A DNA stretch of 40,860 nt from Minisyncoccota bacterium (lineage in GTDB: Bacteria; Patescibacteriota; Minisyncoccia; Phycocordibacterales; JBAZVT01), in the NCBI GenBank assembly GCA_041660745.1, contig JBAZVT010000004.1, positions 1 through 40,860 on the forward strand, given 5' to 3'. Made by a program: the position numbers and the translations under genes. Below, piece by piece: positions 2,383 through 33,902 of this stretch. The notes under the pieces were generated by a model. The model was given only the letters and a program-made list of their open reading frames with translations. It ran no database searches and was not told the origin of the DNA. Positions within the stretch are counted from its first letter, which is position 1. The number at the start of each line of letters is the position of its first letter.

Positions 2383-3594
2383 ATGCACAACCACACCACC
2401 ACAAAAAAAGATCCTGAAACAATTCTGGAAACAAATATTGAACATTTCAAAGGTCTTGAACGCGCGTTGGATATGGCCGAATATTACGGGTTCATTGGCA
2501 TCAAAACACCTCCAATAGAAAAAGCTGATATCGCTGTGGCAAAAGGGTTCCATGGGGAAATAAACACAGGGAGCGATTTCGAAAAGCATGCGATTCGTCT
2601 TGATTTGGATCAGCGAGCAGCTCTCTTACGTATGTATACTGAACATCACAACATACTTGGTCAACCAGCGATGGTTTTTTACAAAACAGTAGGTGCCAAG
2701 AAACCTTCCTTTAATCTTGATATTATTGGCAACTCAAAAAGTATTTCTGAAGCGCTTATCATAAAAACAATCCTTGCAATTGCAGAAGAGGAAGGTTATA
2801 AACATCTTTCGGTTCGCATCAATAGTACGGGTGACCGTGACTCCTTCTCACGATTTGAACGTGAGGTGGCCCACTACTTCAAACAACATTTAAACAAGCT
2901 CCCCGCCGCACACAGGCAAGTTTTCAAGAAAAATCCACTCGGACTCTTGGAATGCACCGACGACGTATGCTTGAGCGTCAATGCTGAAGCACCTCAAATG
3001 ATGTGTTTTCTTTCAGAGCCAAGTCGTATCCACTTCAAAGAAACTTTAGAATATTTAGAAACACTAGATATTGAATATACAATCAGCAACACTCTTCTCG
3101 GCAATGCAAGCTTCGCTTCACAAACTGTATTTGAAGTATATGGAAGCCCAACAGACAACACGAAGGACTCCCAGTTGATTGCAGTCGGAACACGATACAA
3201 CACACTTGCAAAAAAAGTTGGTTTAAAAAAGGAGTGTTATGCAGTAGGTGCAACAATTGTATTAGACAAATCCCCCAAGTGTGCAAAAAAACACGTCTAT
3301 AAAACAAAGAAACCCCAATTCTTTTTCATCCAATTCAGCACAGATGCAAAATTAAAAAGTCTCATGGTAATTGACACCCTGCGATGTGCGCGTATTCCTG
3401 TTGAGCACGCTATTACAAAAGACAAACTTGGTGCCCAGATGGCTGAAGCAGAAAGCATTAAAACTTCCCATATTCTGATCATGGGCCAGAAAGAAGCTTT
3501 AGAAAATTCCGTCGTTGTTAGAGACGTTATCACCCGCTCCCAAGAAAGTATTGATATGAAAGAGTTGGGTGGGTACCTGAAGAAGTTGATGTAA
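2383..3594 (+). CDS. hisS: Histidyl-tRNA synthetase family protein, strongly divergent (class II motifs 2 and 3 and the His-binding loop are degenerate)
   Basis: Colinear with HisRS: INSTGD ~ NSIG, NPLGLLE ~ NPLRVLD, VGTRYNTL ~ GGGRYDGL, and a C-terminal anticodon-binding-like domain (HILIMGQKEALENSVVVRD). However FRYERPQ/RYRQF and RGLDYY are missing. Confidence 0.7.
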   Translation: MHNHTTTKKDPETILETNIEHFKGLERALDMAEYYGFIGIKTPPIEKADIAVAKGFHGEINTGSDFEKHAIRLDLDQRAALLRMYTEHHNILGQPAMVFYKTVGAKKPSFNLDIIGNSKSISEALIIKTILAIAEEEGYKHLSVRINSTGDRDSFSRFEREVAHYFKQHLNKLPAAHRQVFKKNPLGLLECTDDVCLSVNAEAPQMMCFLSEPSRIHFKETLEYLETLDIEYTISNTLLGNASFASQTVFEVYGSPTDNTKDSQLIAVGTRYNTLAKKVGLKKECYAVGATIVLDKSPKCAKKHVYKTKKPQFFFIQFSTDAKLKSLMVIDTLRCARIPVEHAITKDKLGAQMAEAESIKTSHILIMGQKEALENSVVVRDVITRSQESIDMKELGGYLKKLM

Positions 3595-4425: not shown

Positions 4426-5598
4426 ATGGCACGAAATATCGCCGTTGGCATTGATATCGGAACATACCAAGTAAAAACAGTTATCGCTGAAGGAGTCAGG
4501 GATAATGGTATTTTTGCAGCCCATATTTTGGGAACAGGTATTGCTGAATCTCGCGGTATGCGTCACGGCTGTATTATCAATCAATCCGATATTGTTCAAA
4601 GTATAGCATCCTCCATTGCACAAGCCTCTAAAACAGCAGATATGCGCGTTCGAAGTGCTTACATTTCCATTGGAGGTCTCGGACTTGGTGGAATCATTTC
4701 TCAAGGCTCAACGATTATCACGCGTGCAGATTCAGAAATTAGTGCCTTGGATGTTGAGAAAGCGATAGAAATCTGTGAAAGCGAAATCCCCCAGAATCTT
4801 TCCGTCAATAAAAAAATAATTCATAACATCCCCCTTCAATACAAGATTGATGGCAAAGCAGTGCTTGGTCAACCAGTCGGTATGAAAGGTATGAAACTCG
4901 AAGTTCGATGCCTATTCATCACCTGCATAGAACGTCACCTCTCAGATATTATTGATGCAGTAGAACAAGCAGGTATCGAAGTATTGGATGTTATGGCATC
5001 ACCACTCGCTGCAGGGCTTGTTACACTTTCCAAAACACAAAAAATTGCCGGATGTGTACTTGCCAATATCGGCGCAGAAACAGTTTCTATCGTTGTCTAT
5101 GAAAACAATATTCCCATATCACTTGAAGTATTCCCTATCGGTTCTACAGATATCACAAATGACATTGCTCTTGGTCTTAAAATTTCTCTGGAAGAAGCAG
5201 AAAGTATCAAACTTGGCGGACAGACAACGGTCCAATTCCCACGCAGAAAACTTGAAGAAATTGTTGAGGCTCGCCTTTCAGATATGTTTGAACTGATTGA
5301 AGCACATTTAAAAAAGATTGGCCGCAATGGTTTGTTACCCGCAGGTATTGTCATCACGGGTGGCGGTTCTGGTATTGGCAGTCTTACTGAATTAGCAAAA
5401 GAGACACTCAAGCTCCCTTCGCGCCTCGGCACACTATATTCTCCACAGGAACTTAAAGGTATCAAGGATTCAACATGGTCTGTTGCATACGGCCTCTGTA
5501 TCTTTGGTTTCAGTTCTGATTCTGACAGACCCATCTCTCAAAACTTTTCTCGTTTTATTAAAAAATCCCTCGGTTGGTTTAAGCAGTTTTTACCCTAA
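4426..5598 (+). CDS. ftsA: Cell division protein FtsA (actin-like ATPase)
   Basis: GIDIGTYQVKTVIAE phosphate-1 motif, VITGGGSGIGSL adenosine motif, position directly upstream of ftsZ. Confidence 0.9.
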   Translation: MARNIAVGIDIGTYQVKTVIAEGVRDNGIFAAHILGTGIAESRGMRHGCIINQSDIVQSIASSIAQASKTADMRVRSAYISIGGLGLGGIISQGSTIITRADSEISALDVEKAIEICESEIPQNLSVNKKIIHNIPLQYKIDGKAVLGQPVGMKGMKLEVRCLFITCIERHLSDIIDAVEQAGIEVLDVMASPLAAGLVTLSKTQKIAGCVLANIGAETVSIVVYENNIPISLEVFPIGSTDITNDIALGLKISLEEAESIKLGGQTTVQFPRRKLEEIVEARLSDMFELIEAHLKKIGRNGLLPAGIVITGGGSGIGSLTELAKETLKLPSRLGTLYSPQELKGIKDSTWSVAYGLCIFGFSSDSDRPISQNFSRFIKKSLGWFKQFLP

Positions 5599-5616
5599 AA
5601 TTTTCATTCAAAAAAG

Positions 5617-5648
5617 AAAAGCCGCGCCCTCTGGGCGCGGCTTTTTGA
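5617..5648 (+). terminator. Terminator after ftsA
   Basis: gccgcgcc (5621-5628) pairs with ggcgcggc (5635-5642), followed by ttttt. Confidence 0.8.
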
Positions 5649-5694
5649 ACACACAACAGTCCCTATCGCAAGGTGTTTCATTTTATACCCCATT

Positions 5695-5703
5695 TGCTAT
5701 AAT
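5695..5703 (+). promoter_or_regulatory. Extended -10 element TGCTATAAT upstream of ftsZ
   Basis: tgctataat at 5695-5703, about 80 nt before the ftsZ ATG. The same 9-mer recurs in front of gyrB and the NDK-like gene. Confidence 0.4.
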
Positions 5704-5785
5704 ACCCTACATTACTCAAGCAGTCCGTGTGCAATCTTCATAAACGGTTTTCTGCTAAAAATTTATTAATCTAGAGCGCTGTATT

Positions 5786-6979
5786 ATGCCCCAAATCAAA
5801 CCAGAAGTAGAAGCATTCGCACGCATTAAAGTCATTGGTGCTGGAGGTTCCGGAAAGAATGCGATAAACCACATGATTAATTCCAAAGTAAAAGGGATTG
5901 ATTTTATCGCAGTTAATACAGACGCCCAAGATTTGCACCACTCTCTTGCAAAGCGTAAAGTCCACATCGGCAAAAACCTCACTCGAGGACTTGGCACAGG
6001 TATGAATCCTGAACTTGGCAAACGTGCAGTTGAAGAAACAAAGGAAGAAGTTCAGGAAGCAATAAAAGGTGCTGATATGGTTTTCATTGCCTGTGGTCTC
6101 GGTGGCGGAACTGGCTCTGGCGCAAGTCCTGCAATCGCCCGTATCGCAAAAGAGCTCGGCGCTCTCACGGTGGCAGTTGTAACAAAACCATTTTTCTTTG
6201 AAGGTATGCAGCGTGTCCGTGTCGCAGAGCAAGCACTTGAAGAACTTCGCAAAGAAGTTGATGCTATTATTGTTGTTCCAAACGACAGACTCTTGAGCAA
6301 CATCACTAAAGAAACTACTGCAAAGGCAGCTTTCGCAATGTGTGACGACATCCTCAAACAAGCTGTGGAAGGTATTTCTGACCTTATCACTACCCCAGGT
6401 ATCATTAACATAGACTTTGCTGACATTAGAGCTGTCATGGCAAATGCCGGTTCAGCACTCATGGGTATTGGTTCCGCATCAGGCGAAAAACGTGCCGAAG
6501 AAGCAGCAAAAGCCGCAATTAACTCACCCCTACTTGAACTTTCTATTCATGGAGCAAAAGGTGTTCTGTTTTCAATCGCCGGCGGTGAAGATGTTACTAT
6601 GTTTGAAATCCAGGATGCAGCAAAAATCATCACCGAATCTATTGATCCAAATGCAAAGGTTATCTTTGGTACTGTCTATGATGACAAACTAAAAAAGAAC
6701 GAAATAAAGATCACAGTGATTGCTTCGGGTTTCCCAGAAATAGCCCAAAAGAAAAGCCTCTTCCATACCGAAGAATCAAAACAAATAAATCAGGATCAGC
6801 AGAAAGGTAAGATTTTTAATTCAGTACCAACCCAACAGAAAGAAGTGAAAGTCGAGGAAAAGAAATCAGAACCAGTTTTCACCCAACAGCCCGTCCGACA
6901 AGCTCCTCCTGTCATAGAAGATGAAAGTGATGATTGGAGTGCGGTACCCGCATTCTTGCGACGATCTAAATTGAAATAG
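5786..6979 (+). CDS. ftsZ: Cell division GTPase FtsZ
   Basis: GAGGSGKNAINHM, tubulin signature GLGGGTGSGASPAIA, NDRLL, conserved C-terminal peptide DDWSAVPAFLRR. Confidence 0.97.
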   Translation: MPQIKPEVEAFARIKVIGAGGSGKNAINHMINSKVKGIDFIAVNTDAQDLHHSLAKRKVHIGKNLTRGLGTGMNPELGKRAVEETKEEVQEAIKGADMVFIACGLGGGTGSGASPAIARIAKELGALTVAVVTKPFFFEGMQRVRVAEQALEELRKEVDAIIVVPNDRLLSNITKETTAKAAFAMCDDILKQAVEGISDLITTPGIINIDFADIRAVMANAGSALMGIGSASGEKRAEEAAKAAINSPLLELSIHGAKGVLFSIAGGEDVTMFEIQDAAKIITESIDPNAKVIFGTVYDDKLKKNEIKITVIASGFPEIAQKKSLFHTEESKQINQDQQKGKIFNSVPTQQKEVKVEEKKSEPVFTQQPVRQAPPVIEDESDDWSAVPAFLRRSKLK

Positions 6980-16435: not shown

Positions 16436-19400
16436 TTATTTATTTTCTTCTGCAGTCTCTTCTCTAATCTTCAACACGAGATACGTGATTGCAACCACAA
16501 GCCCAACAATGATAAGTGGCAACAAAATTGTTAAAAAGTTAAACAATATAGCGAGAACAATGGCAATAGCAATTCCTGCCATGTAGAACATAATCCTACG
16601 GAAACGACGAGTCTTCTCATCGAGACCAACATAATTGGTTCGATCAATTACAAGAGTAATCACGTAGATAATAATGAGAATGATCAGGAGTATTGCAAGG
16701 GATCGTGCTCCAGCAGAAGGGGTTGCAGGTAAGGCAAACAAAGCAGCAGCAACGTTTCTAAAGTTCTGAGCAAAGAAGCTCGGAGTTGTTGAAGCTGTGG
16801 TGGTACTTATAGGCAAAATACCTATTTCACCATTGTTTATATCAATATTTTGCTCTTCTTCAGAAGGAACTGTTGGAATTTGTCCTTGAGTACCATTATT
16901 TTGTCCTTGAGGAACTGCGATACCTTGAGCTTTAAGTGAGTTCAAAAATGTCTTATATGCCGCGATTTCTCCCTCCTGTTGCACATTCAATGGAAAGGCC
17001 TTTTCGCAATATATCTCATTAACCTTTTTCTTGGTCAATATATAGACATACCCAGTACCTGTATTCCCATCGTAGCCCCATGGTTTAAGAATATCGTTTC
17101 TAAAGCCCTTTTGGAACTCCTTAACTGCGTCATATGTAACCTGGTCATAGAAACCAGTTACGGGAACATTTGTATATCCCATGAGATCGTGGAGGAATAT
17201 CTGTAATTTACGAACTTCTGTGGGATTGTTTTGTGCACCAAACTTAATGTATTCCAAAAGATAATTACATGTCACAGCAGTTGTTTGTGGAGCCAAGGTA
17301 AGCTCTTTGCCGAGCGCAGTTAAACTACCAGCTGTTGAATAGGGTTTGAAATAGTATGTTGAACCTGTTTTAAGGCCAAACACAAGCATTGAGTGGGTTG
17401 TAGAAGCAGCTGTCAATGTAACTGTTCCTGTTTCGTAACCAAAGTAAGGTGCTGACCCTTTTGTTGACTGAGAATTAAGTCCGTACACAACCTGTCGGGT
17501 TGCAGCACGGTTTGTTGTCCAACGAACAAGCGCGACTCCTGGGGCGAGCTCTTGAATTTGCTCGTTTGAAATCACCAATGATGCGCTGCCGCCACGGCCA
17601 CCGCCACCACCTCCATTACCACCAGATGTTACTGAAAAAGTAAGTGTCTTTGAGTCAATTCCGCAGGTTGAACTTGCTGCAATACCGATAGAATAGGTAC
17701 CCGCTTGCGTTGGTGTTCCCGAAATTACTCCTGTTGTACTTGCAAAAGATAATCCGGAAGGAAGTCCTGTTACAGAAAGTCCGAGGGTTGATGTTGAATT
17801 ATTTGTTGCAGTCAATGTGTATGAAAATGCAGTTCCAATCTTAATAGATGCCGAGAGACTACTTGTAATAACGGGAGTGGGACATGAAGAGATTGTTGTA
17901 ACAATCACCGTACGTGTCACGGGAATAGCTGTAGCACCCTGAGAATCTGTTACGTTATATGTGATTGTGTATGTCCCAACAGTCGTTGTGGCAACAGTAC
18001 TTGAGGCAATAATCTGTGATGTGATATCTCCATCTTCAGGGTCGGCAGCTGTAGCGCCTGGATCAGTAAAATTTGTTCCAACATTTATTGTCATCGGTGT
18101 CGTACCGAGAAGAGTTATAACTGGACGCTGGTTAGAACCGCCATTATTAACAACTGTTACGGTTCGAGTAACTGGATCTGCCGCAAGACCTTGAGAATCA
18201 GATACATTGTATGTAATTGTATATACTCCAAGAGTATTTGTTGCTACTGAACCCGTAACGACGATGTCCGATGTGATATTCCCATCTTCAAAGTCGAGAG
18301 CGGTAGCACCAAGATCGATAAAGTTTGATCCGACGGAAATAGTAGGTGCTGCAGAGCCAATTAATGTAATAACAGGCTTCTGGTTTGCAGCTGGTGATGC
18401 AGAAAATGTATTCAAAAGCACAAGAGTGCGATGGGTGGAACTAGCTGTGAGCGTTATTACGCCATCAGCATTATCAATGGTTTCATAAGGGAAAAAATTG
18501 GAAACCGAACTAACGGGTATAGTAAATTGATCGTTATATTTACCCGCTGCCCAAGAACTTCCAACAACAGTTTCTCTTGTGTAATTGTACTGACCAAGAG
18601 GAACAACAAAATCAACACAATCCGCATCATTCGTGCCAAGAATTATGGAACGATCTGGGGAAAAGGCTGAAGCAGTCAATGACCACTGGGCTGAAAATGC
18701 AGATGTATTAGCTGCGTTACTGAGACTAATTGAAAATGTACCTACAGGAAGACCTGTAGCACTCGTCTTCAAAACGTTATTTGAATCAGCAATCATCTTA
18801 CAAACAGATAATGTACCTGTGCCAGATGGAGTTGTTGTTGATCCATCTGTGGTTGCAGACGCTGAAGCCGATGCATCTACGTTTGAATTGGAACTCGAAC
18901 CAATACTTCCCCCCATAACAAAAGCTGTGGAAGAAGCTGAAGCGTCAGCTGATGCTGATGCAGATGCACTTCCTGCTGGCGAGGTTGTAGTCGCTTGCGC
19001 GAGAGCTGAAGCAAGAGCTTCTGCAGATGAATCTGCGAATGGTTCACCCGATGAGTTTATTCCTGCAGTACTTGCAGAATTTGCAGATGCATCCGCACTA
19101 GATGATCCAGACACAGTGGTTGGAATGGTTGTTGATGTAAGAGAAGCTTGCGCTGTTGAATTCGTATTGGCATTTGTTCCCGCGCCAGAAGCTACTGTCT
19201 GAGTACCAGTATCTATAGAACCAGAAGCATTACTATTAGCACCTGTTGAACCAGAAGCGGAGCCCGTTGCTGGAACACCGTCTCCAGAACCAGTAATAAC
19301 TACGGAAGATTGTGTGGAGCCATCAGAATTAGATGTTGATGTCGTAACTGTACCAGAACCTGTGTTTGAAGAATTATTAGAAGAAGAGGATGATGAGGAA

Positions 19401-19561
19401 GAAGATGAAGAAGAACTAACTACCGCAGCATACGCAGTGAGTACTGGAGATATATCGGCAGCAATAAAACCAAGAAGAAGAAGTGCAGAAACGGAAAAAG
19501 AGAGAAAATTATTTCCCCTGGAATATCGTCCTGTTTGAGTTTTGATTCTGAATAAATGCAT
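16436..19561 (-). CDS. Large secreted/cell-surface protein (1041 aa): signal peptide, Ser/Thr/Ala-rich region, tandem Ig-like domains, FN3-like domain, peptidoglycan-binding-like domain, C-terminal TM anchor
   Basis: N-terminal hydrophobic segment ending AYA. Poly-Ser run. Two ~78-aa repeats PVITL.G....I.VG..F.D.GATA.D.EDG.IT...........G.YTITYNV.DSQG......RTV.V. GLPSGLSF...GVISGTPTQAGTY Ig-like motif. G-rich linker. VRKLQIFL....GFYD..T..AVK.FQ PG-binding-like motif. Two C-terminal TM helices. Confidence 0.85.
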   Translation of the reverse strand: MHLFRIKTQTGRYSRGNNFLSFSVSALLLLGFIAADISPVLTAYAAVVSSSSSSSSSSSSSNNSSNTGSGTVTTSTSNSDGSTQSSVVITGSGDGVPATGSASGSTGANSNASGSIDTGTQTVASGAGTNANTNSTAQASLTSTTIPTTVSGSSSADASANSASTAGINSSGEPFADSSAEALASALAQATTTSPAGSASASASADASASSTAFVMGGSIGSSSNSNVDASASASATTDGSTTTPSGTGTLSVCKMIADSNNVLKTSATGLPVGTFSISLSNAANTSAFSAQWSLTASAFSPDRSIILGTNDADCVDFVVPLGQYNYTRETVVGSSWAAGKYNDQFTIPVSSVSNFFPYETIDNADGVITLTASSTHRTLVLLNTFSASPAANQKPVITLIGSAAPTISVGSNFIDLGATALDFEDGNITSDIVVTGSVATNTLGVYTITYNVSDSQGLAADPVTRTVTVVNNGGSNQRPVITLLGTTPMTINVGTNFTDPGATAADPEDGDITSQIIASSTVATTTVGTYTITYNVTDSQGATAIPVTRTVIVTTISSCPTPVITSSLSASIKIGTAFSYTLTATNNSTSTLGLSVTGLPSGLSFASTTGVISGTPTQAGTYSIGIAASSTCGIDSKTLTFSVTSGGNGGGGGGRGGSASLVISNEQIQELAPGVALVRWTTNRAATRQVVYGLNSQSTKGSAPYFGYETGTVTLTAASTTHSMLVFGLKTGSTYYFKPYSTAGSLTALGKELTLAPQTTAVTCNYLLEYIKFGAQNNPTEVRKLQIFLHDLMGYTNVPVTGFYDQVTYDAVKEFQKGFRNDILKPWGYDGNTGTGYVYILTKKKVNEIYCEKAFPLNVQQEGEIAAYKTFLNSLKAQGIAVPQGQNNGTQGQIPTVPSEEEQNIDINNGEIGILPISTTTASTTPSFFAQNFRNVAAALFALPATPSAGARSLAILLIILIIIYVITLVIDRTNYVGLDEKTRRFRRIMFYMAGIAIAIVLAILFNFLTILLPLIIVGLVVAITYLVLKIREETAEENK
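17897..18379 (-). repeat. Two tandem copies of an Ig-like (DUF5011/HYR-type) domain coding repeat
   Basis: aa 395-472 and 479-555 of the surface protein align without gaps over most of their length (hand alignment). Confidence 0.8.
18812..19429 (-). repeat. Low-complexity Ser/Thr/Ala/Gly-rich coding region, including a 13-residue Ser run
   Basis: aa 45-250 of the surface protein; it generates mirror acidic ORFs on the + strand. Confidence 0.85.
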
Positions 19562-20054: not shown

Positions 20055-22253
20055 ATGGACAAATTACTTAAACCCTATAATTCACAAGACACCGAAGACC
20101 GCATATACGCCTCTTGGGAACAAGGTGGTTTCTTCAACCCGGACGTGTGTATTCAAAAAGGATATACTGCTTCTGATGCAGATTATTTTTCTATAGTTCT
20201 CCCTCCCCCAAATGTCACCGGGACACTCCACATGGGTCATGCCGCAATGCTCGCAATAGAAGACATTGCCGTTCGCTATAACCGCATGTGCGGCAAACGC
20301 ACCCTCTGGCTTCCCGGCACTGATCACGCAGCTATTGCAACACAGTCAAAAGTTGAAACTATCCTCTATAAAGAAGAAGGTAAACGTAGACACGACCTCG
20401 GCAGAGAAGAACTTTTGAAGCGAGTTGAAAAGTTTGCGCAAGATAGCCACGACACCATCGTCAATCAAGTTCGAAAAATGGGGTCCTCTATAGATTGGTC
20501 CCGCGAGGCTTTTACCTTGGATGAAAAACGCAACCTCGCTGTCCGCACCGCCTTCAAGAAAATGTTTGATGACGGACTCATCTATCGAGGCTACCGAATC
20601 GTGAACTGGGACCCAAAAGGCCAGACGACTATCTCCGACGATGAAATTGTATATAAAGAATCTAAAACAACACTCTATACGTTCCGTTATTCAAAAGACT
20701 TCCCCATTGCAATATCCACAACTCGCCCCGAAACAAAAGTTGGGGACACAGGCGTCGCCGTAAACCCTTCAGACGAAAGATATAAGCATCTCATAGGAAA
20801 AGAATACGATATTACGTTTGCTGGTGTACCCATTCATGTAAAAATTGTTGCCGATGAAGCTGCAGATCCCGCTTTTGGAACTGGCGCTGTCGGTGTTACA
20901 CCTGCCCATAGTCAAATAGACTGGCAAATTGCACAGCGACACAAGCTTCCAATAGTTCCTGTTATAAATGAATATGCGAAAATGGCCGATAGCACAGGAA
21001 CACTTGCTGGGAAAAAAGTGACCGACGCACGTATAGAAATTGTAGAATGGCTTAAAAAAGAAGACCTCCTAGAGAAAGAGGAGGATGTTGCACATAACAT
21101 TGCCACGGCTGAACGCACTGGAGCAACAGTTGAACCACTACCAAAACTTCAGTGGTTCATTAATGTCAATAAAGAATTTACTCTTCCTTATTCCAATATC
21201 ACTGGGATAGCGAGTGGTTCGGTTACAACACTCAAAGAACTTATGCGAGCGGTTATTAATAATGGACAGATAAAGATTATCCCCGATCGTTTTGAAAAAA
21301 TATACTTCCAGTGGGTAGATAATCTGCGTGACTGGTGTATCAGCCGTCAGATATGGTACGGTCACAGAATCCCTGTTTGGTACAAAGGAGAAGAAATTTT
21401 CTGTGGAATGGAAGCCCCTACAGGCGAAGGCTGGGTACAAGATGAGGATACTTTGGATACATGGTTCTCGTCTGGGCTGTGGACATTTTCAACACTCGGC
21501 TGGCCTGATATGAACTCTGCTGATTTAAAAAACTTTCATCCAACGTCTCTCATGGAGACCGGGTACGATATTATATTCTTCTGGGTTGCTCGCATGGTCC
21601 TCATGACAACATATCTTCTCGGCGAGATTCCCTTCAAGACCGTATACCTACATGGCCTTGTTCGGGATGCCAAGGGTCAGAAAATGAGTAAGTCCCTCGG
21701 AAACCTTATAGACCCACTAGAAATGATAAAAAAATACGGCGCCGATGCCACCCGCATGTCCCTCATCATCGGCACAGGACCAGGCAACGATATGAAGCTA
21801 TCAGAAGATAAAGTTCGCGGATACAAAAACTTTGCCAACAAAATATGGAACGCAACCCGATTTGTCTTGGAAAATGTAAAGGACTGTGACTATAGCCAGA
21901 AACCAATTCTTACTGAAGGAGACGAAAAGGCTATCGCAGAATTTGAAATAACCCTCAAAGATGTAACGGCGGATATAGATAACTACAGATACTACCTAGC
22001 GGGGGAAAAACTCTACCATTATTTCTGGCACACCTTTGCAGATGTATATATCGAACAATCCAAATCTCGTCTCAGCGCAGATAAGAATAGTACAGACCAC
22101 ATCTCCGTCCAGTGGACATTGCTCTATATATTAGAAAACTGTATTCGCGCGTTACATCCTTTTATCCCCTTTGTCACCGAAGAACTCTGGGCAATGCTCC
22201 CCACACACAATAAGAAAATGTTGATTGTGGAGTCCTGGCCTGTTGTGAGATAA
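20055..22253 (+). CDS. valS: Valyl-tRNA synthetase (short form, no C-terminal coiled coil)
   Basis: PPPNVTGTLHMGHA (HIGH), TRPET, WCISRQ.WYGH, DTWFSS, KMSKSLGN. 732 aa. Confidence 0.96.
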   Translation: MDKLLKPYNSQDTEDRIYASWEQGGFFNPDVCIQKGYTASDADYFSIVLPPPNVTGTLHMGHAAMLAIEDIAVRYNRMCGKRTLWLPGTDHAAIATQSKVETILYKEEGKRRHDLGREELLKRVEKFAQDSHDTIVNQVRKMGSSIDWSREAFTLDEKRNLAVRTAFKKMFDDGLIYRGYRIVNWDPKGQTTISDDEIVYKESKTTLYTFRYSKDFPIAISTTRPETKVGDTGVAVNPSDERYKHLIGKEYDITFAGVPIHVKIVADEAADPAFGTGAVGVTPAHSQIDWQIAQRHKLPIVPVINEYAKMADSTGTLAGKKVTDARIEIVEWLKKEDLLEKEEDVAHNIATAERTGATVEPLPKLQWFINVNKEFTLPYSNITGIASGSVTTLKELMRAVINNGQIKIIPDRFEKIYFQWVDNLRDWCISRQIWYGHRIPVWYKGEEIFCGMEAPTGEGWVQDEDTLDTWFSSGLWTFSTLGWPDMNSADLKNFHPTSLMETGYDIIFFWVARMVLMTTYLLGEIPFKTVYLHGLVRDAKGQKMSKSLGNLIDPLEMIKKYGADATRMSLIIGTGPGNDMKLSEDKVRGYKNFANKIWNATRFVLENVKDCDYSQKPILTEGDEKAIAEFEITLKDVTADIDNYRYYLAGEKLYHYFWHTFADVYIEQSKSRLSADKNSTDHISVQWTLLYILENCIRALHPFIPFVTEELWAMLPTHNKKMLIVESWPVVR

Positions 22254-30175: not shown

Positions 30176-30739
30176 CTAACGCCTCCAAATATGCCCCAAA
30201 ACAAGATCAATTTTAGCATGCAATTCTGCCAAACTCCCGTCATTAGAAAAAACAACATCGGCAGACTTGATACAGGCTGACAAATTACCACGCCATGGTT
30301 CTATATTATTGTTTTCCTTCTGTTCATCCTCAAGAAATTTTTCGAACGAAACATAATCCGTACTACTTCCCCGCAAACAAACCCGCTCAAAACGAGTTTT
30401 AGGATCTGCATCAACAGCAATAAAATAACCGTCAGGGACCATCATCCTGAAAAGATCAACCTCATTAATTGATCGTATTGATTCAACAATCGCAGGACTG
30501 CCAGATCTTTTAGCGCGACTAATCAATTCTCCAATCATAAATTCTGGTCCACGCTCTCGACGAAACTCATCAGCAATAAAAGTCATAGTGTCTCGTACAG
30601 GCGGCATGCCTCGGCGGAGAATCTCCTCCAATAAAAATTGTCTTGCGGAAAAATGCTTGAAACCTTTTGTTATAAGATAATCAACAATCGCTCCCTTACC
30701 CGCACCAATTGTACCTGTAATGCCTATAATAGCTGCCAT
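30176..30739 (-). CDS. P-loop nucleotide kinase family protein (dephospho-CoA kinase / dNMP kinase-like)
   Basis: Start trimmed to MAAIIGITGTIGAGKG (Walker A), 187 aa. Confidence 0.6.
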   Translation of the reverse strand: MAAIIGITGTIGAGKGAIVDYLITKGFKHFSARQFLLEEILRRGMPPVRDTMTFIADEFRRERGPEFMIGELISRAKRSGSPAIVESIRSINEVDLFRMMVPDGYFIAVDADPKTRFERVCLRGSSTDYVSFEKFLEDEQKENNNIEPWRGNLSACIKSADVVFSNDGSLAELHAKIDLVLGHIWRR

Positions 30740-30749
30740 GGGAATATAG

Positions 30750-33140
30750 CTATCTGACGTTCCACCCCTCCTGGCCATTAAGTGCAACAGTCACCTTCTC
30801 CATAACAGAAACAAGTTCTTCCTCAGACAAGGTTTTCTCAAATGACTGGTACACGAGACGAAAAGCATATGACGTTTTTGTTTCACCCTCTCCAAATTTC
30901 TTCGTAAACACATCAAACAGCTTCGCCCGAACAAGAAGCGGGCCTGCACTTTTTGAAATAACATCTAACACATCCTCTGCCGACACCCCTTCAGGCACAA
31001 ACACTGCCACGTCACGCACCGCATAAGGATATGTTGAAATCGTTCTGTACTTTGGAATAGCACTACTTGTTACAAGCATTTCTTTTTCGTATTTTTCTGC
31101 ATCAGGTAATTTCTCTAAGAGTGCGTCAAAAATAATTTCAACAACAGAATTCTTTTGTTGAATAAAAGGCTTCAAATCAATTCCCCACACTCTAGAAAGA
31201 CCTTCTATCACACAAGCAAGTTCCTCGTCTTCCTTGGACCCCTTATACCCCTTCTGATTTTTAACACCGAATGCAAATCGTACTGATTCGCCCTTTTTAG
31301 GAAACACTGCCCCAACCTCGAACAACTTGATTTGATCAATACCAACAAGATCAGCATTACGCGCGTTAAAGTCCAGGGAGGACGCTAGTGCATCAGAGAG
31401 GTTCGTACGAAGATGGTTTTTGTCAGACGCAAGTGGCTTTAATACTTCTATGTCGCCCTTAGGAACAAACACGTACGTGTACACCTCCGAAAAACCTTTT
31501 TCCAAAAGTACTTCTCGAGCACGCAACATATAATAATACCGTTTATTGACCGAAGGCTTTCTGTCTATATGAGAAAGAAGTTTTGTCTCTATTTTTTCAT
31601 ACCCATGCAATCTACCAATTTCTTCAATAATATCTTCTGGTCGCGTAATATCAAGTCTCTCCACAGGGACAGTTACAACAAAACGTCCAAGATTAATACT
31701 TGGAAGACGTCTAAAGCCGACAATATGCTGAAAAGAAGTACTCTTTGAAATTTCTTCAACAACAACACCCTTACCCTCATGGGCTGTAGCGTGGATTATT
31801 TTTCCCTCACCAAGATATATGCCGACATGATCAACACCCTCAGGAACCTTTACCCCTTTCATGTATTCCTTAGACTCAAAATGAATATTTCCAACCCCGC
31901 TATTAGAAAAAACTAAATCGCCAGGGGTCAACTCTTCCTGTTTTATTTCATCAGTATATATATACTGATCAACGGAAATTCTGGGAATCGTGTACCCCAC
32001 CTGAGAACAGATGTACGAAACAAAAGACGAACAATCAAAAAGACGTGGAGCATCGCGGCGGACGGAAGCACCACTTTTGTATGGAGCACCAACAACAGTG
32101 GGTGCGAGACTCAAAATCTTTGATTTGGGATCAACATACTCACACACAATTCCTAATTTCAAAAGAGTATCAACAACATCTTTCTCTGATATATTCAAAC
32201 CGAGGACGGAACGTATTTTTTCAAGAGTCACGCCTGTCTTAAAAGGAGAAGCCGGGCGAGGATAAACATCAACAGTCCCCTCAACAGTTGTATCACCACT
32301 GCCTGCGATTTCCATCAAAATTTTTACAACAAGAGCCATGGCTTGTTCTGCAATTTCCGGGGCTATACCATTCTCAAAACGAACAGAGGCATCGGTTCTG
32401 ATACCAACCTTCTTGGAAGTAAGTCGTGTGGTAATCGGATTGAAGTTTGCAGATTCAACAATAATATTTTTTGTTTCAGAATCAATTTCCGCTTTCTTGC
32501 CACCTTTAATACCAGCAATACCTAATGCATCACCGGAATTACCGTCACAAATCAGTAACGTCCCCTGAGGAAGTTCGTGTACAGCACCATCAAGAAGTGT
32601 TATCTTCTCACCCATATCAGAACCACGTACAGCAACACTCCACACACCTTCGCGGCCCTCCATCTTATCCATATCAAATGCATGTAATGGCTGCCCGAGG
32701 GAAAACATGACAAAATTTGTCGCATCCACGATATTATTGATAGATCTCTGTCCCATCGATTCAAGCTTCTTCATGAGCCACTCTGGAGATGGCCCAACAC
32801 GAACATTTTTTATCACGGTGCCAACATATCGAAGACATTGAGTCTCGTCTTCAATATCAACTCTGAGAATTTTCGAAAGTGGTGTATTAAATTTCGAAGA
32901 AAAAAGATCTTTTTTTACATCCAGATTACATATCGCACCGACTTCACGCGCCATTCCAAAATATGATAAACAGTCATGATTACGATTCGGTAGTACTTTT
33001 ACATCAAAAATAATATCATCCTTCACCTCATCCACCGATTCAATCTCAAAAGACTTCATGGTGATAGTCTCGACGAGTTCCTTAGGTGTCGGTAATGAAC
33101 CACCGAAATATTCTTTAAGCCAATTATAACTAATTTTCAT
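30750..33140 (-). CDS. pheT: Phenylalanyl-tRNA synthetase beta subunit with an inserted NlpC/P60 domain
   Basis: MKISYNWLKEY N-terminus, B3/4 block INNIVDATNFVM..GQPLHAFD, B5 block, DIIEEIGRLHGYEKI, C-terminal FDX-ACB-like region. Confidence 0.93.
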   Translation of the reverse strand: MKISYNWLKEYFGGSLPTPKELVETITMKSFEIESVDEVKDDIIFDVKVLPNRNHDCLSYFGMAREVGAICNLDVKKDLFSSKFNTPLSKILRVDIEDETQCLRYVGTVIKNVRVGPSPEWLMKKLESMGQRSINNIVDATNFVMFSLGQPLHAFDMDKMEGREGVWSVAVRGSDMGEKITLLDGAVHELPQGTLLICDGNSGDALGIAGIKGGKKAEIDSETKNIIVESANFNPITTRLTSKKVGIRTDASVRFENGIAPEIAEQAMALVVKILMEIAGSGDTTVEGTVDVYPRPASPFKTGVTLEKIRSVLGLNISEKDVVDTLLKLGIVCEYVDPKSKILSLAPTVVGAPYKSGASVRRDAPRLFDCSSFVSYICSQVGYTIPRISVDQYIYTDEIKQEELTPGDLVFSNSGVGNIHFESKEYMKGVKVPEGVDHVGIYLGEGKIIHATAHEGKGVVVEEISKSTSFQHIVGFRRLPSINLGRFVVTVPVERLDITRPEDIIEEIGRLHGYEKIETKLLSHIDRKPSVNKRYYYMLRAREVLLEKGFSEVYTYVFVPKGDIEVLKPLASDKNHLRTNLSDALASSLDFNARNADLVGIDQIKLFEVGAVFPKKGESVRFAFGVKNQKGYKGSKEDEELACVIEGLSRVWGIDLKPFIQQKNSVVEIIFDALLEKLPDAEKYEKEMLVTSSAIPKYRTISTYPYAVRDVAVFVPEGVSAEDVLDVISKSAGPLLVRAKLFDVFTKKFGEGETKTSYAFRLVYQSFEKTLSEEELVSVMEKVTVALNGQEGWNVR
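31683..32129 (-). other. NlpC/P60 papain-like cysteine peptidase domain inserted in the PheT B5 region (aa ~338-486)
   Basis: GAPYKSG....FDCSSFV (Cys370, codon 32031-32033) ... PGDLVF ... DHVGIYLGEGKIIHA (His438, His450). Confidence 0.8.
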
Positions 33141-33149
33141 AAGTATTTT

Positions 33150-33902
33150 TTAGAACTGATTTACAACACGGAGATCTCCTGAATAAAGCTGTCGAATATC
33201 GTCAATACCATATTTAAGCATTACAAGCCTGTCTATACCATATCCAAACGCAAAACCCTGATATTTTTCTGGGTTAATACCGACTCCCTCAAGCACCTTG
33301 GGATGCACCATTCCCGATCCACCCAACTCAATCCAACCAGTTCCTTTACAGACATTACAACCAGCTCCCTCACACTTGAAACATTGCATATCAAATTCAA
33401 AACCAGGTTCAACGAAAGGAAAATAACTTGGTCGAAAACGAGCAACAACTTTCTTCCCAAAAAACTTTTCAAAAAATTGTTCAAGAGTTCCTTTAAGATG
33501 TGCTACTGAAATTTCTGTATCAATCATCAAACATTCAATCTGATGAAACTGAGCTTCATGGGTTGCATCGGTAGCTTCATTTCTAAAAACCTTGCCGGCA
33601 GAGATAATCTTGATCGGTGGTTTATGTTTTTCCATATAACGAATCTGGACGGACGACGTATGTGTTCGAAGTAATTTACGAGACGATTCAGGCTTCAACC
33701 AAAACGTATCTTGCATATCTCGTGCAGGGTGAAACGAGGGCACATTAAGTGCATCAAAGTTGTACCATTCTTCTTCCATTTCTGGACCATCAACACTTTC
33801 AAACCCCATTTCGTTAAAAATAGAGACGATATCTTTTATAACAATAGAAAGCGGGTGCAGATGTCCTTCGTTCTTCTCGGGCGTTGATTCATTTGTATTC
33901 AT
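33150..33902 (-). CDS. pheS: Phenylalanyl-tRNA synthetase alpha subunit (short, catalytic core only)
   Basis: HPL..., SFHPARDMQDTF, FRNEATDATHEAQFHQIE (motif 2), GGSGMVHPKVL, GFAFGYGIDRL (motif 3). 250 aa. Confidence 0.93.
   Translation of the reverse strand: MNTNESTPEKNEGHLHPLSIVIKDIVSIFNEMGFESVDGPEMEEEWYNFDALNVPSFHPARDMQDTFWLKPESSRKLLRTHTSSVQIRYMEKHKPPIKIISAGKVFRNEATDATHEAQFHQIECLMIDTEISVAHLKGTLEQFFEKFFGKKVVARFRPSYFPFVEPGFEFDMQCFKCEGAGCNVCKGTGWIELGGSGMVHPKVLEGVGINPEKYQGFAFGYGIDRLVMLKYGIDDIRQLYSGDLRVVNQF

What the first reader, a model, noticed from the sequence alone, without database searches (positions are those of the whole stretch)
31683..32129. Intact NlpC/P60 cysteine-peptidase domain inserted inside phenylalanyl-tRNA synthetase beta subunit
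PheT is otherwise canonical, with its N-terminal region, B3/4 editing block, B5 domain, catalytic-like core and C-terminal domain. Between the first half of B5 (...DTLLKLGIVCEYVD) and its second half (FVVTVPVERLDITRPEDIIEEIGRLHGYEKI), about 150 aa are inserted. These carry every hallmark of the NlpC/P60 papain-like fold: GAPYKSG, the catalytic Cys in FDCSSFV (codon 32031-32033), PGDLVF, and His in DHVGIYLGEGKIIHA with a second His 12 residues later. NlpC/P60 domains are normally secreted cell-wall amidases/endopeptidases or acyltransferases, and I know of no aaRS subunit carrying one. The catalytic residues are conserved, so the domain is probably active. In the cytoplasm it could be an extra hydrolytic (trans-editing or deacylase) module, a peptidoglycan-precursor or peptide amidase moonlighting on the PheRS scaffold, or an acyltransferase. 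There is no frameshift or stop across the junctions, so this is a true in-frame fusion and not two genes.
Basis: partly seen in the sequence, partly recalled or inferred. Interest (0 to 1): 0.75.

Follow-up and report, generated by a model that had tools for sequence, protein, structure and literature searches.

The report
Cell-wall-type peptidase nested inside PheRS beta
The essential phenylalanyl-tRNA synthetase beta subunit of this candidate-phyla-radiation bacterium carries a complete, apparently active cell-wall-type cysteine peptidase inside one of its domains; the arrangement is real, shared by hundreds of related species, found in none of the papers I searched, and its function has not been tested.

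Summary
The 796-aa PheT (30750-33140, minus strand) holds a full NlpC/P60 (C40) domain at aa 338-486. It sits in the beta-hairpin turn of the B5 domain, in one ORF, directly after pheS.

It is not an assembly artefact. An 81%-identical ortholog lies on at least 20 contigs from several samples. At least 546 GTDB species genomes encode the module, all named ones Paceibacteria/Parcubacteria.

Cys370, His438 and His450 are invariant or nearly so. The insert is as conserved as the B3/4 editing domain (dN/dS about 0.07). Its nearest sequence and structure neighbours are all peptidoglycan DL-endopeptidases.

The canonical editing residues of PheT are intact, and the window encodes Pth.

In related lineages a mitochondrial-type monomeric PheRS replaces pheS-pheT at the same locus. 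There, only the B5[NlpC/P60] piece survives, as a 199-233-aa gene. Its triad is invariant while its B5 part is eroded. A small C39-like peptidase gene follows the module in most genomes, but not in this window.

Best reading: an active cytoplasmic peptidase whose job is separable from aminoacylation, probably acting on gamma-D-glutamyl-type peptides. PheT would be its carrier. The substrate is inferred, not shown.

Eight literature searches, seven of which returned results, found no description. Verdict: new variant of a known kind, interest about 0.6.

The parts
33150..33902 (-). pheS, 250 aa. Class II catalytic core only; the N-terminal coiled coil is absent.
   Evidence: Pfam tRNA-synt_2d E 2.7e-104. 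TIGR00468 317 bits, matching profile positions 63-322. Its stop lies 9 nt upstream of the pheT ATG.
30750..33140 (-). pheT, 796 aa. PheRS beta subunit with domains B1, B3/4, B5[NlpC/P60], CLM and B8. No B2 domain.
   Evidence: AF2 model: mean pLDDT 92.6, pTM 0.71. Foldseek matches PheRS beta chains at E about 1e-49.
32301..32840 (-). B3/4 editing domain (aa 101-280), with the canonical editing residues kept.
   Evidence: Pfam B3_4 E 5.3e-55. E. coli R244, N254, H265, G318, E334, T354 and A356 align to window R132, N142, H153, G213, E229, T249 and A251. N142, H153, G213 and E229 are invariant and T249 is at least 90% conserved in 120 homologs.
32130..32255 (-). B5 domain, N-terminal half (aa 296-337), ending in beta-strand VCEYV.
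   Evidence: AF2 strand 332-336.
31683..32129 (-). Inserted NlpC/P60 (MEROPS C40) cysteine peptidase domain, aa 338-486.
   Evidence: Pfam PF00877, 66 bits, full length. PDB 7cfl: E 3.6e-17 by sequence; TM 0.89-0.91, rmsd 1.6-2.1 A, 34% identity by structure. pLDDT 91-97 across the region.
32031..32033 (-). Catalytic Cys370 (motif FDCSS).
   Evidence: Conserved in 120/120 close homologs, 210/212 PheT-length modules and 20/20 stand-alone modules.
31827..31829 (-). Catalytic His438 (motif DHVGIY).
   Evidence: 120/120; 210/212 and 20/20.
31791..31793 (-). Third triad residue His450 (motif IIHA), 12 residues after His438.
   Evidence: 115/120, the rest Tyr; 201/212 and 20/20.
31833..31898 (-). 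Family-specific beta-hairpin sub-insertion (aa 415-436) between the GDLVF strand and the catalytic-His strand.
   Evidence: It appears as a gap of 14 to 23 residues in every printed alignment to free NlpC/P60 proteins and PDB chains. It is conserved in the fusions: E425, F/Y426, G429, G435. AF2 strands 420-422 and 431-436. It is about 17 residues longer in the main stand-alone clade.
31581..31682 (-). B5 domain, C-terminal half (aa 487-520): strand FVVTV plus helix PEDIIEEIGRLHGY.
   Evidence: Pfam B5 profile positions 35-67. Aligns to E. coli 447-475. AF2 strand 486-490 and helix 501-512.
31194..31547 (-). Catalytic-like module (B6/B7), aa 532-649.
   Evidence: Pfam PF17759, E 1.9e-08.
30753..31037 (-). 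B8 anticodon-binding domain (FDX-ACB), aa 702-796.
   Evidence: Pfam PF03147, E 2.1e-21.

Best explanation
This is the housekeeping PheRS beta subunit of a Paceibacteria (Parcubacteria, CPR) bacterium. A complete NlpC/P60 cysteine peptidase of the cell-wall DL-endopeptidase type is nested in the beta-hairpin turn of its B5 domain.

Shown:
- The architecture is ancient and lineage-wide.
- It is held by purifying selection as strong as that on the editing domain.
- It has an intact Cys-His-His triad and a confidently predicted papain-like fold.

Inferred:
- The domain is an active cytoplasmic hydrolase whose function is separable from aminoacylation and editing. PheT acts as a constitutively expressed carrier, and the B5 halves clamp the peptidase's two ends.
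- Its most likely substrates are small gamma-D-glutamyl-type peptides or amides, for example peptidoglycan stem peptides taken up or recycled by an auxotrophic cell. It would then work like the cytoplasmic NlpC/P60 enzyme YkfC.
- In most relatives it probably acts together with a small C39-like cysteine peptidase encoded immediately downstream.
For: Real and widespread:
- All 120 best homologs (44-81% identity) have the same five Pfam domains.
- The 81%-identical ortholog is on at least 20 contigs from several samples with the same pheS-pheT synteny.
- At least 546 GTDB species genomes encode the module. The best 80 are all fused PheT next to a short PheS.

Active enzyme:
- Triad and motif residues are nearly invariant.
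- Mean pairwise identity of the insert is 0.535, against 0.537 for B3/4 and 0.39 for CLM. dN/dS of the insert is about 0.07.

Peptidase type:
- Every sequence and structure neighbour is a peptidoglycan DL-endopeptidase: Acd24020, Acd33800, LytE, CwlO, MepS, YkfC-like 3h41.
- NlpC/P60 enzymes hydrolyse gamma-D-Glu-mDAP or MurNAc-L-Ala bonds (PMC8262956).

Separable from PheRS:
- The editing-site residues of B3/4 are kept.
- Pth is encoded in the window.
- In lineages where a monomeric CAM+B8 PheRS sits at the syntenic locus, only B5[NlpC/P60] survives, as a 199-233-aa ORF. Its triad is 20/20 conserved, but its B5 is shortened and C-terminally truncated, and the KEDL Asp is Asn in 10 of 20.
- The stand-alone protein is predicted to fold well: pLDDT 90.9, pTM 0.87.

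Partner gene: a Peptidase_C39_2 gene follows the fused pheT in 52 of 72 loci with enough downstream sequence, 43 of them within 250 nt. It also follows the stand-alone module in L005, L013 and L014.
Against: - No biochemical data exist. The substrate is inferred only from family resemblance.
- The family differs from wall endopeptidases: 'GAS' replaces the usual 'GG' after the PY motif, and there is a 17-to-40-residue hairpin next to the catalytic His. Specificity may therefore have changed.
- The module, fused or free, is always found at the PheRS locus. The free form has its start codon overlapping the PheRS stop codon in L005. This could mean a functional tie rather than inherited synteny.
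- Three of seven monomeric-PheRS contexts lack the module nearby, and this window lacks the C39-like partner. Neither element is indispensable.
- I could not obtain model coordinates, so the position of the active site relative to the tRNA path is unknown.
Confidence: 0.5

Rival explanations
1. PheRS-coupled hydrolase. The Cys-His-His site hydrolyses an ester or anhydride made by PheRS, such as mischarged, D- or N-blocked aminoacyl-tRNAPhe or a non-cognate adenylate. It would be a second editing or deacylase activity in cis. In lineages with the editing-less monomeric PheRS it would act in trans.
For: - The module never leaves the PheRS locus.
- The free form directly follows the monomeric PheRS, which has no B3/4 domain, with overlapping stop and start codons.
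- B5 neighbours the B3/4 helices and the alpha subunit in known PheRS structures (PMC12449066).
- PheRS here has lost B2 and the alpha coiled coil, so it is remodelled anyway.
Against: - The canonical editing residues are intact and invariant in the fused proteins, so a second editor would be redundant.
- Pth is present.
- All conserved motifs and all top-50 structural neighbours are those of peptide DL-endopeptidases. There is no resemblance to any known aminoacyl-tRNA deacylase family.
- Three monomeric-PheRS loci lack the module.
- The C-terminal helix of B5 is truncated in every stand-alone protein.
- The co-conserved partner is another peptidase.
Confidence: 0.2
2. Acyl- or aminoacyl-transferase. 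Cys370 forms a thioester with an acyl group (as LRAT/PLAAT members of the NlpC/P60 superfamily do), possibly with phenylalanyl from Phe-AMP or Phe-tRNA, and passes it to an amine or hydroxyl acceptor.
For: - The NlpC/P60 superfamily includes acyltransferases (my own knowledge: Anantharaman & Aravind 2003).
- A weak LRAT hit appears for one stand-alone protein: E 6.6e-4, 20.4 bits, below the 24.3 cutoff.
- The domain is physically joined to an enzyme that makes activated Phe.
Against: - No LRAT/PLAAT or CHAP structure appears among the 50 Foldseek neighbours listed in either search.
- The sequence motifs are those of the P60 hydrolase subgroup.
- The module persists after separation from PheT.
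Confidence: 0.08
3. Non-catalytic structural or RNA-binding module that compensates for the lost B2 domain and the lost alpha-subunit coiled coil.
For: - PheS lacks the coiled coil that normally helps bind tRNAPhe (PMC3275996).
- PheT lacks B2.
- Inactive NlpC/P60 domains exist, for example RipD (listed).
Against: - The triad is invariant or nearly so across more than 200 divergent sequences.
- Variants of about 900 aa keep B2 and still carry the insert (P0075 and P0100; L072).
- Free modules keep the triad while their B5 part erodes.
Confidence: 0.07
4. Assembly chimera, or two genes misread as one.
For: None found.
Against: - It is a single ORF.
- Composition is uniform across the junctions.
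- The same junctions occur in hundreds of independent assemblies, including the complete genome CP011215.1.
- The B5 halves flank the insert precisely, at profile positions 34/35.
Confidence: 0.01

Closest known systems
Bacterial (alpha-beta)2 PheRS beta subunit (PheT; TIGR00472; e.g. E. coli 3PCO, T. thermophilus 1PYS)
   Same: It has the B1, B3/4 (with editing residues), B5, CLM and B8 domains, sits in a pheS-pheT operon, scores above the TIGR00472 cutoff, and matches PheRS beta chains by Foldseek at E about 1e-49.
   Different: It has no B2 domain. A 149-aa NlpC/P60 peptidase sits in the B5 hairpin. The partner PheS lacks the coiled coil.
Secreted NlpC/P60 peptidoglycan DL-endopeptidases (C. 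difficile Acd24020/7CFL, B. subtilis LytE and CwlO, E. coli MepS)
   Same: Same fold (TM about 0.9), 34% identity to 7CFL, the same Cys-His-His triad and the same PY / DCS / PR..DQ / GD.VF / H.G.Y motifs.
   Different: It has no signal peptide and no SH3b, LysM or coiled-coil targeting domains. It is embedded in a cytosolic enzyme. It has 'GAS' in place of 'GG' and an extra beta-hairpin of 17-40 residues before the catalytic His.
YkfC-type cytoplasmic gamma-D-Glu-L-Lys/mDAP endopeptidase (B. cereus 3H41), a muropeptide recycling enzyme
   Same: It is an NlpC/P60 hydrolase working inside the cell, which is the functional precedent for the proposed role. 3H41 is a Foldseek hit at E 5.4e-7.
   Different: YkfC has two N-terminal SH3b domains that select the L-Ala N-terminus (my own knowledge). 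Here the accessory domain is a split B5, and the activity is untested.
Mitochondrial monomeric PheRS (FARS2; TIGR00469) and stand-alone PheT-derived proteins such as the B3/4 deacylase CtdA
   Same: These are precedents for dismantling PheRS-beta into pieces. The Paceibacteria relatives with CAM+B8 in one 375-385-aa chain match pheS_mito best (236 bits). CtdA is a free B3/4 domain (PMC12449066).
   Different: In this window PheRS is still heterotetramer-type. The surviving free piece in relatives is B5[NlpC/P60], not B3/4. TIGR00469 scores just below its cutoff of 258.

Membership tests
NlpC/P60 (Pfam PF00877, MEROPS C40) | Profile match above the curated threshold over the whole domain | tested here: met
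   66 bits against a cutoff of 23, profile positions 1-105 of 105.
NlpC/P60 (Pfam PF00877, MEROPS C40) | Catalytic Cys, His and a third polar residue aligned with those of characterised members | tested here: met
   C370, H438 and H450 align to FDCS, HVGIY and IHA of 7cfl. They are conserved in 210, 210 and 201 of 212 PheT-length modules and in 20 of 20 stand-alone modules.
NlpC/P60 (Pfam PF00877, MEROPS C40) | Papain-like alpha+beta fold | tested here: met
   AF2 pLDDT is 91-97 over the insert. Foldseek to 7cfl gives TMt 0.89-0.91 and rmsd 1.6-2.1 A.
NlpC/P60 (Pfam PF00877, MEROPS C40) | Hydrolysis of gamma-D-Glu-diamino acid or MurNAc-L-Ala bonds | not testable with these tools
   Needs enzyme assays.
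Secreted cell-wall autolysin subgroup of NlpC/P60 | Signal peptide or lipobox, plus wall-targeting domains (SH3b, LysM, coiled coil) | tested here: not met
   The domain is internal to cytosolic PheT. The stand-alone relatives start MSDLIYRVG... with no hydrophobic leader. No targeting-domain Pfam hits were found.
Bacterial PheRS beta subunit (TIGR00472) | Equivalog model above cutoff, with an adjacent pheS | tested here: met
   450 bits against a cutoff of 402.65. pheS lies 9 nt upstream.
Bacterial PheRS beta subunit (TIGR00472) | Full domain set B1-B8, including the B2 OB-fold | tested here: not met
   No PF01588 hit. Window residue 41 aligns to E. coli residue 154. B1, B3/4, B5, CLM and B8 are present.
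Bacterial PheRS beta subunit (TIGR00472) | B3/4 editing-site residues (E. coli R244, N254, H265, G318, E334, T354, A356) | tested here: met
   They correspond to R132, N142, H153, G213, E229, T249 and A251. N142, H153, G213 and E229 are invariant and T249 is at least 90% conserved in 120 homologs.
Known aminoacyl-tRNA deacylase or trans-editing families (free B3/4 such as CtdA, AlaX, YbaK/ProX, DTD, Pth) | Sequence or fold homology of the insert to one of these families | tested here: not met
   The Pfam and NCBIfam hits of the insert are NlpC/P60 families, plus one marginal sub-threshold pantothenate kinase hit (E 0.065). The 50 Foldseek hits listed contain none of these families (the same holds for the insert's hits). 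Pth is a separate gene at 938-1621.
LRAT/PLAAT acyltransferase branch of the NlpC/P60 superfamily (PF04970) | Profile match or structural similarity to LRAT-like proteins | tested here: not met
   The only hit is sub-threshold (20.4 bits against 24.3) and is on one stand-alone relative. None appears among the 50 listed Foldseek hits of either search.
YkfC-type cytoplasmic DL-endopeptidase | NlpC/P60 catalytic domain preceded by two SH3b domains; activity on L-Ala-gamma-D-Glu-L-Lys/mDAP | tested here: not met
   The catalytic domain is similar (3h41, E 5.4e-7), but there are no SH3b domains. Activity is not testable here. This is a 'works like' comparison, not membership.

The most novel reading that the evidence does not exclude
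The nested papain-like domain acts on a product of PheRS itself. It might capture the phenylalanyl group from Phe-AMP or Phe-tRNAPhe as a Cys370 thioester and transfer it to an acceptor, or hydrolyse it. That would make it a new, non-B3/4 quality-control or aminoacyl-transfer activity built into an aminoacyl-tRNA synthetase. In lineages that switched to an editing-less monomeric PheRS it would be kept as a trans-acting factor.
Probability: 0.15. Interest if true: 0.9.

Novelty: new variant of a known kind. Interest (0 to 1): 0.62.

Why it matters
- Aminoacyl-tRNA synthetases collect appended domains, but I know of no case, and the literature searches found none, of a catalytically intact cell-wall-type cysteine peptidase nested inside a synthetase domain. 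Here it is fixed across a whole class of ultra-small CPR bacteria.
- It adds a cytoplasmic peptidase activity, with a co-conserved second peptidase, to organisms whose nutrition and cell-wall economy are poorly understood. It also gives a small soluble stand-alone ortholog that could be assayed directly.
- The same locus documents step by step how a bacterial heterotetrameric PheRS can be replaced by a mitochondrial-type monomer. A 2010 review described that form as the only known monomeric class II catalytic module and as mitochondrial (PMC3275996).
- If the peptidase turns out to act on aminoacyl-tRNA or adenylate, it would be a new kind of translational quality control.

Tried and rejected
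They combined NlpC/P60, C40, PheRS, PheT, phenylalanyl-tRNA synthetase, Patescibacteria, Parcubacteria, Paceibacteria, monomeric and domain insertion. One further search was on the B5 domain and one on Acd24020. None found a description of this architecture. The two candidate papers checked were irrelevant.
- Misassembly: rejected.
- Degenerate B3/4 editing compensated by the insert: rejected. The editing residues are intact.
- Pth substitute: rejected. Pth is in the window.
- A free-living donor of the insert: the closest non-PheT relatives are ordinary secreted multi-P60 proteins at 30-36% identity that lack the hairpin. No close donor was found.
- Single origin of the stand-alone genes: a neighbour-joining tree of 260 modules split them into one clade of 11, one of 3 and six singletons (a seventh, P0204, is a PheT fragment). 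It is unresolved whether this means several independent origins or tree noise.
- PDB sequence search for the C39-like partner: no meaningful hit.
- Rfam: no leader or T-box near pheST, only four tRNAs in the window.
Full report
**1.

The region lies in a single 796-aa ORF, window 30750-33140 on the minus strand. Pfam finds these domains:
- B3_4, aa 101-280.
- NLPC_P60, aa 351-478: E 3.4e-18, 66 bits against a gathering score of 23, covering the whole profile.
- B5 in two pieces. The C-terminal piece, aa 482-514, matches profile positions 35-67.
- The catalytic-like module, aa 532-649.
- FDX-ACB, aa 702-796.

The bacterial pheT equivalog TIGR00472 scores 450 bits against a cutoff of 402.65. Cys370 is at 32031-32033 as stated, and His438 and His450 follow.

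A phmmer search of PDB gives C. difficile autolysin Acd24020 (7cfl) at E 3.6e-17. The FDCS, HVGIY and IHA motifs align residue for residue.

Alignment to E. coli PheT shows the insert replaces the turn of the B5 beta-hairpin (E. coli ...CEVTEGKDEWQAVAP...). No B5 residues are lost. GC content is uniform across the junctions.

- It lacks the B2 OB-fold. Window residue 41 aligns to E. coli residue 154, and there is no PF01588 hit.
- PheS (33150-33902) is only 250 aa and begins at position 63 of the TIGR00468 profile, so it lacks the N-terminal coiled coil.
- That coiled coil normally takes part in tRNAPhe binding (PMC3275996).

**2. It is not an artefact, and it is not rare**

- All 120 best homologs in the 5.8-billion-protein collection carry the same five Pfam domains. 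They are 44-81% identical and 773-903 aa long.
- Source names include Paceibacterota, Parcubacteria, Yonathbacteria, Campbellbacteria and Minisyncoccia. NCBI calls these proteins 'phenylalanine--tRNA ligase beta subunit-related protein' or 'C40 family peptidase'.
- The 81%-identical ortholog is on at least 20 contigs from several samples, with the same 250-aa pheS directly upstream.
- A phmmer search with the insert alone against 1.84 billion cluster representatives gives 95 hits at E <= 1e-30. Nearly all of the top 150 are about 770-810 aa, with the domain at residues about 330-480.
They include the closed genome CP011215.1 (Campbellbacteria) and MAGs named Lloyd-, Terry-, Taylor-, Nomura- and Zambryskibacteria.
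- The best 80 loci are all fused PheT of about 770-900 aa. In 75 of the 80 loci a short PheS ORF (229-323 aa where complete) lies on the same strand.

**3. The domain looks active and is under strong constraint**

- In the 120 close homologs, C370 and H438 are invariant. H450 is His in 115, and Tyr in the rest. Y354, D369, R387, D391, G407 and D408 are at least 97% conserved.
- Over 212 PheT-length modules the triad counts are 210, 210 and 201.
- Mean pairwise identity of the insert is 0.535. That equals the B3/4 editing domain (0.537) and exceeds the catalytic-like module (0.39).
- Against the 81% ortholog, dN/dS of the insert is about 0.07. dS is about 1.2, near saturation, so the value is approximate.
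- AlphaFold2 with the 120-sequence alignment gives mean pLDDT 92.6 and pTM 0.71, with 91-97 over the insert.
- Foldseek matches the whole model to PheRS beta chains at E about 1e-49. It matches the insert to 7cfl with TM 0.89-0.91, rmsd 1.6-2.1 A and 34% identity.
- The family has its own signature. 'PYKxGAS' replaces the usual 'PYxxGG'. A conserved beta-hairpin (aa 415-436) lies between the GDLVF strand and the catalytic-His strand.
- That hairpin is a gap of 14 to 23 residues in every printed alignment to free NlpC/P60 proteins. The closest free relatives are ordinary secreted multi-P60 proteins at only 30-36% identity.

**4. Evidence on what it does**

(a) Canonical editing is intact.
- E. 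coli editing-site residues R244, N254, H265, G318, E334, T354 and A356 align to R132, N142, H153, G213, E229, T249 and A251.
- N142, H153, G213 and E229 are invariant and T249 is at least 90% conserved in the family.

(b) The window encodes peptidyl-tRNA hydrolase at 938-1621.

(c) The module outlives the rest of PheT. This is the most informative result.
- Among the insert's relatives are 199-233-aa proteins. They start with Met plus the first B5 strand (YKxG), continue through the whole NlpC/P60 domain, and end shortly after the second B5 strand.
- They align to window PheT residues 300-509 at 41-42% identity.
- Their genes sit in the same neighbourhood as the window's pheT: rpsB, tsf, a GT2 glycosyltransferase, the PheRS gene, the module, then gyrB.
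- The PheRS gene there encodes a 378-382-aa single chain with the class II core plus FDX-ACB. This is the mitochondrial-type CAM+B8 architecture. Its best NCBIfam hit is pheS_mito at 236 bits. It is only 30-32% identical to the window PheS.
- In L005 the module's ATG overlaps the PheRS stop codon.
- In 20 such stand-alone proteins Y354, C370, H438 and H450 are 20/20.
- Their B5 part is eroded. A 10-12-residue deletion removes part of the N-terminal half in the main clade. The conserved Asp of KEDL is Asn in 10 of 20. The 'GRxYGY' end of the helix is missing in all.
- From my own knowledge, that helix carries the Mg2+ and alpha-subunit contact residues in canonical PheT.
- AlphaFold2 predicts the stand-alone P0273 as a compact fold: pLDDT 90.9, pTM 0.87. 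Its top 50 PDB neighbours are all NlpC/P60 proteins, most of them annotated peptidoglycan DL-endopeptidases or cell-wall hydrolases, including the YkfC-like 3h41.

(d) The module is not obligatory for monomeric PheRS. Three other monomeric-PheRS loci lack it nearby.

(e) A partner gene is co-conserved.
- A small (156-180 aa), leaderless Peptidase_C39_2 gene lies directly downstream of the stand-alone module in L005, L013 and L014.
- It also lies downstream of the fused pheT in 52 of the 72 GTDB loci with at least 500 nt of downstream sequence. In 43 of them it is within 250 nt on the same strand.
- The window itself lacks this gene. A 203-aa P-loop kinase-like ORF (30176-30787) occupies that place.

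**5. Interpretation**

Shown:
- A complete, conserved NlpC/P60 domain of the DL-endopeptidase subgroup is nested in B5 of the housekeeping PheT.
- It is ancient within Paceibacteria.
- Selection acts on its catalytic residues even after it is separated from PheT.

Inferred:
- The enzyme's job is separable from aminoacylation and editing. PheT is its carrier and B5 its structural clamp.
- By family resemblance, and by the precedent of the cytoplasmic NlpC/P60 enzyme YkfC (my own knowledge), the most likely substrates are gamma-D-glutamyl-type peptides such as peptidoglycan stem peptides. NlpC/P60 enzymes hydrolyse gamma-D-Glu-mDAP or MurNAc-L-Ala bonds (PMC8262956).
- It may work with the C39-like peptidase.

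I put about 0.5 on this overall. Confidence is higher that the function is separable and lower for the specific substrate.

Rivals:
- A PheRS-coupled deacylase or second editor (0.2). Persistent linkage to the PheRS gene, including the editing-less monomer, keeps this alive.
- An acyl- or aminoacyl-transferase (0.08).
- A non-catalytic structural role (0.07).
- An artefact (0.01).

**6. Comparison with what is known, and novelty**

- The protein passes membership tests for NlpC/P60 (profile, triad, fold) and for bacterial PheT (equivalog score, editing residues, operon), apart from the missing B2.
- It fails the tests for secreted autolysins (no leader or targeting domains), for known deacylase families, and for the LRAT branch.
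- Eight full-text searches, seven of which returned results, found no paper describing a peptidase inside PheT or any aaRS, and none describing the free B5[NlpC/P60] genes (checks).
- The sequences themselves are in public databases under automatic names.
- I therefore rate it a new variant of a known kind: real, lineage-wide, undescribed, with the mechanism still open.
- Interest is 0.62. A specialist in aaRS evolution or CPR biology would be surprised by the architecture and by its survival as a remnant gene. But it is a conserved clade trait rather than a singular oddity, and its function is inferred only.

Noticed in passing
L005:6862-8001; L008:6856-8004; L014:435-1580; L010, L011 and L012:5001-6140: A bacterial, mitochondrial-type single-chain PheRS (class II core plus FDX-ACB/B8, 375-385 aa) occupies the pheS-pheT position in many Paceibacteria. 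Its best NCBIfam hit is pheS_mito at 236 bits, and SrmL scores 231. More than 120 clusters are 71-86% identical to each other. A 2010 review called the mitochondrial enzyme the only known monomeric class II catalytic module (PMC3275996). I could not check whether these genomes lack any canonical pheT.
   Followed up: partly
L005:8001-8669; L008:8001-8681; L013:846-1505; L014:1606-2286: Stand-alone B5[NlpC/P60] genes (199-233 aa, about 20 clusters) look like remnants of pheT, with an invariant catalytic triad and an eroded B5. On a neighbour-joining tree they fall into several groups, so they may have arisen more than once.
   Followed up: yes
L005:8666-9172; L013:1560-2030; L014:2350-2886; about position 5460-6200 in 52 of loci L015-L094: A small leaderless Peptidase_C39_2 (papain-like) gene lies immediately downstream of the fused pheT or of the free module in most relatives. 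It is absent from this window. It has no PDB sequence homolog.
   Followed up: partly
window 33150-33902 and 33021-33140: PheRS is remodelled beyond the insert. PheS lacks the N-terminal coiled coil and PheT lacks the B2 OB-fold. A few relatives of about 860-900 aa (P0075, P0100, L072, L084, L052) are longer; P0075 and P0100 have a tRNA_bind (PF01588) hit together with the insert.
   Followed up: partly
window 20055-22253: The LeuRS-like class I synthetase is only 732 aa and matches only a fragment (profile positions 110-146 of 185) of the LeuRS editing-domain model. The CP1 editing domain may be reduced.
   Followed up: no
window 30176-30787: A 203-aa P-loop (AAA_18/AAA_17) kinase-like ORF overlaps the 3' end of pheT by 38 nt. 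It sits where most relatives have the C39-like gene. The 81% relative L001 has unannotated 213-aa and 90-aa ORFs there.
   Followed up: no
L020, L021, L025, L030 and many other loci: Many MAGs titled 'uncultured Candidatus Saccharibacteria bacterium' carry this Paceibacteria-type fused PheT at 45-53% identity. The record titles are probably generic or mislabelled, not evidence that the feature occurs in Saccharimonadia.
   Followed up: no
window 16436-19561: A 1041-aa protein with bacterial Ig-like surface domains and a PG_binding_1 domain, probably a cell-surface protein.
   Followed up: no
window 2383-3594: A 403-aa ORF with only an HGTP_anticodon hit and no class II core hit at E <= 1e-3. 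It may be a divergent HisRS-like synthetase. The syntenic relative in L005 has tRNA-synt_2b plus HGTP_anticodon.
   Followed up: no
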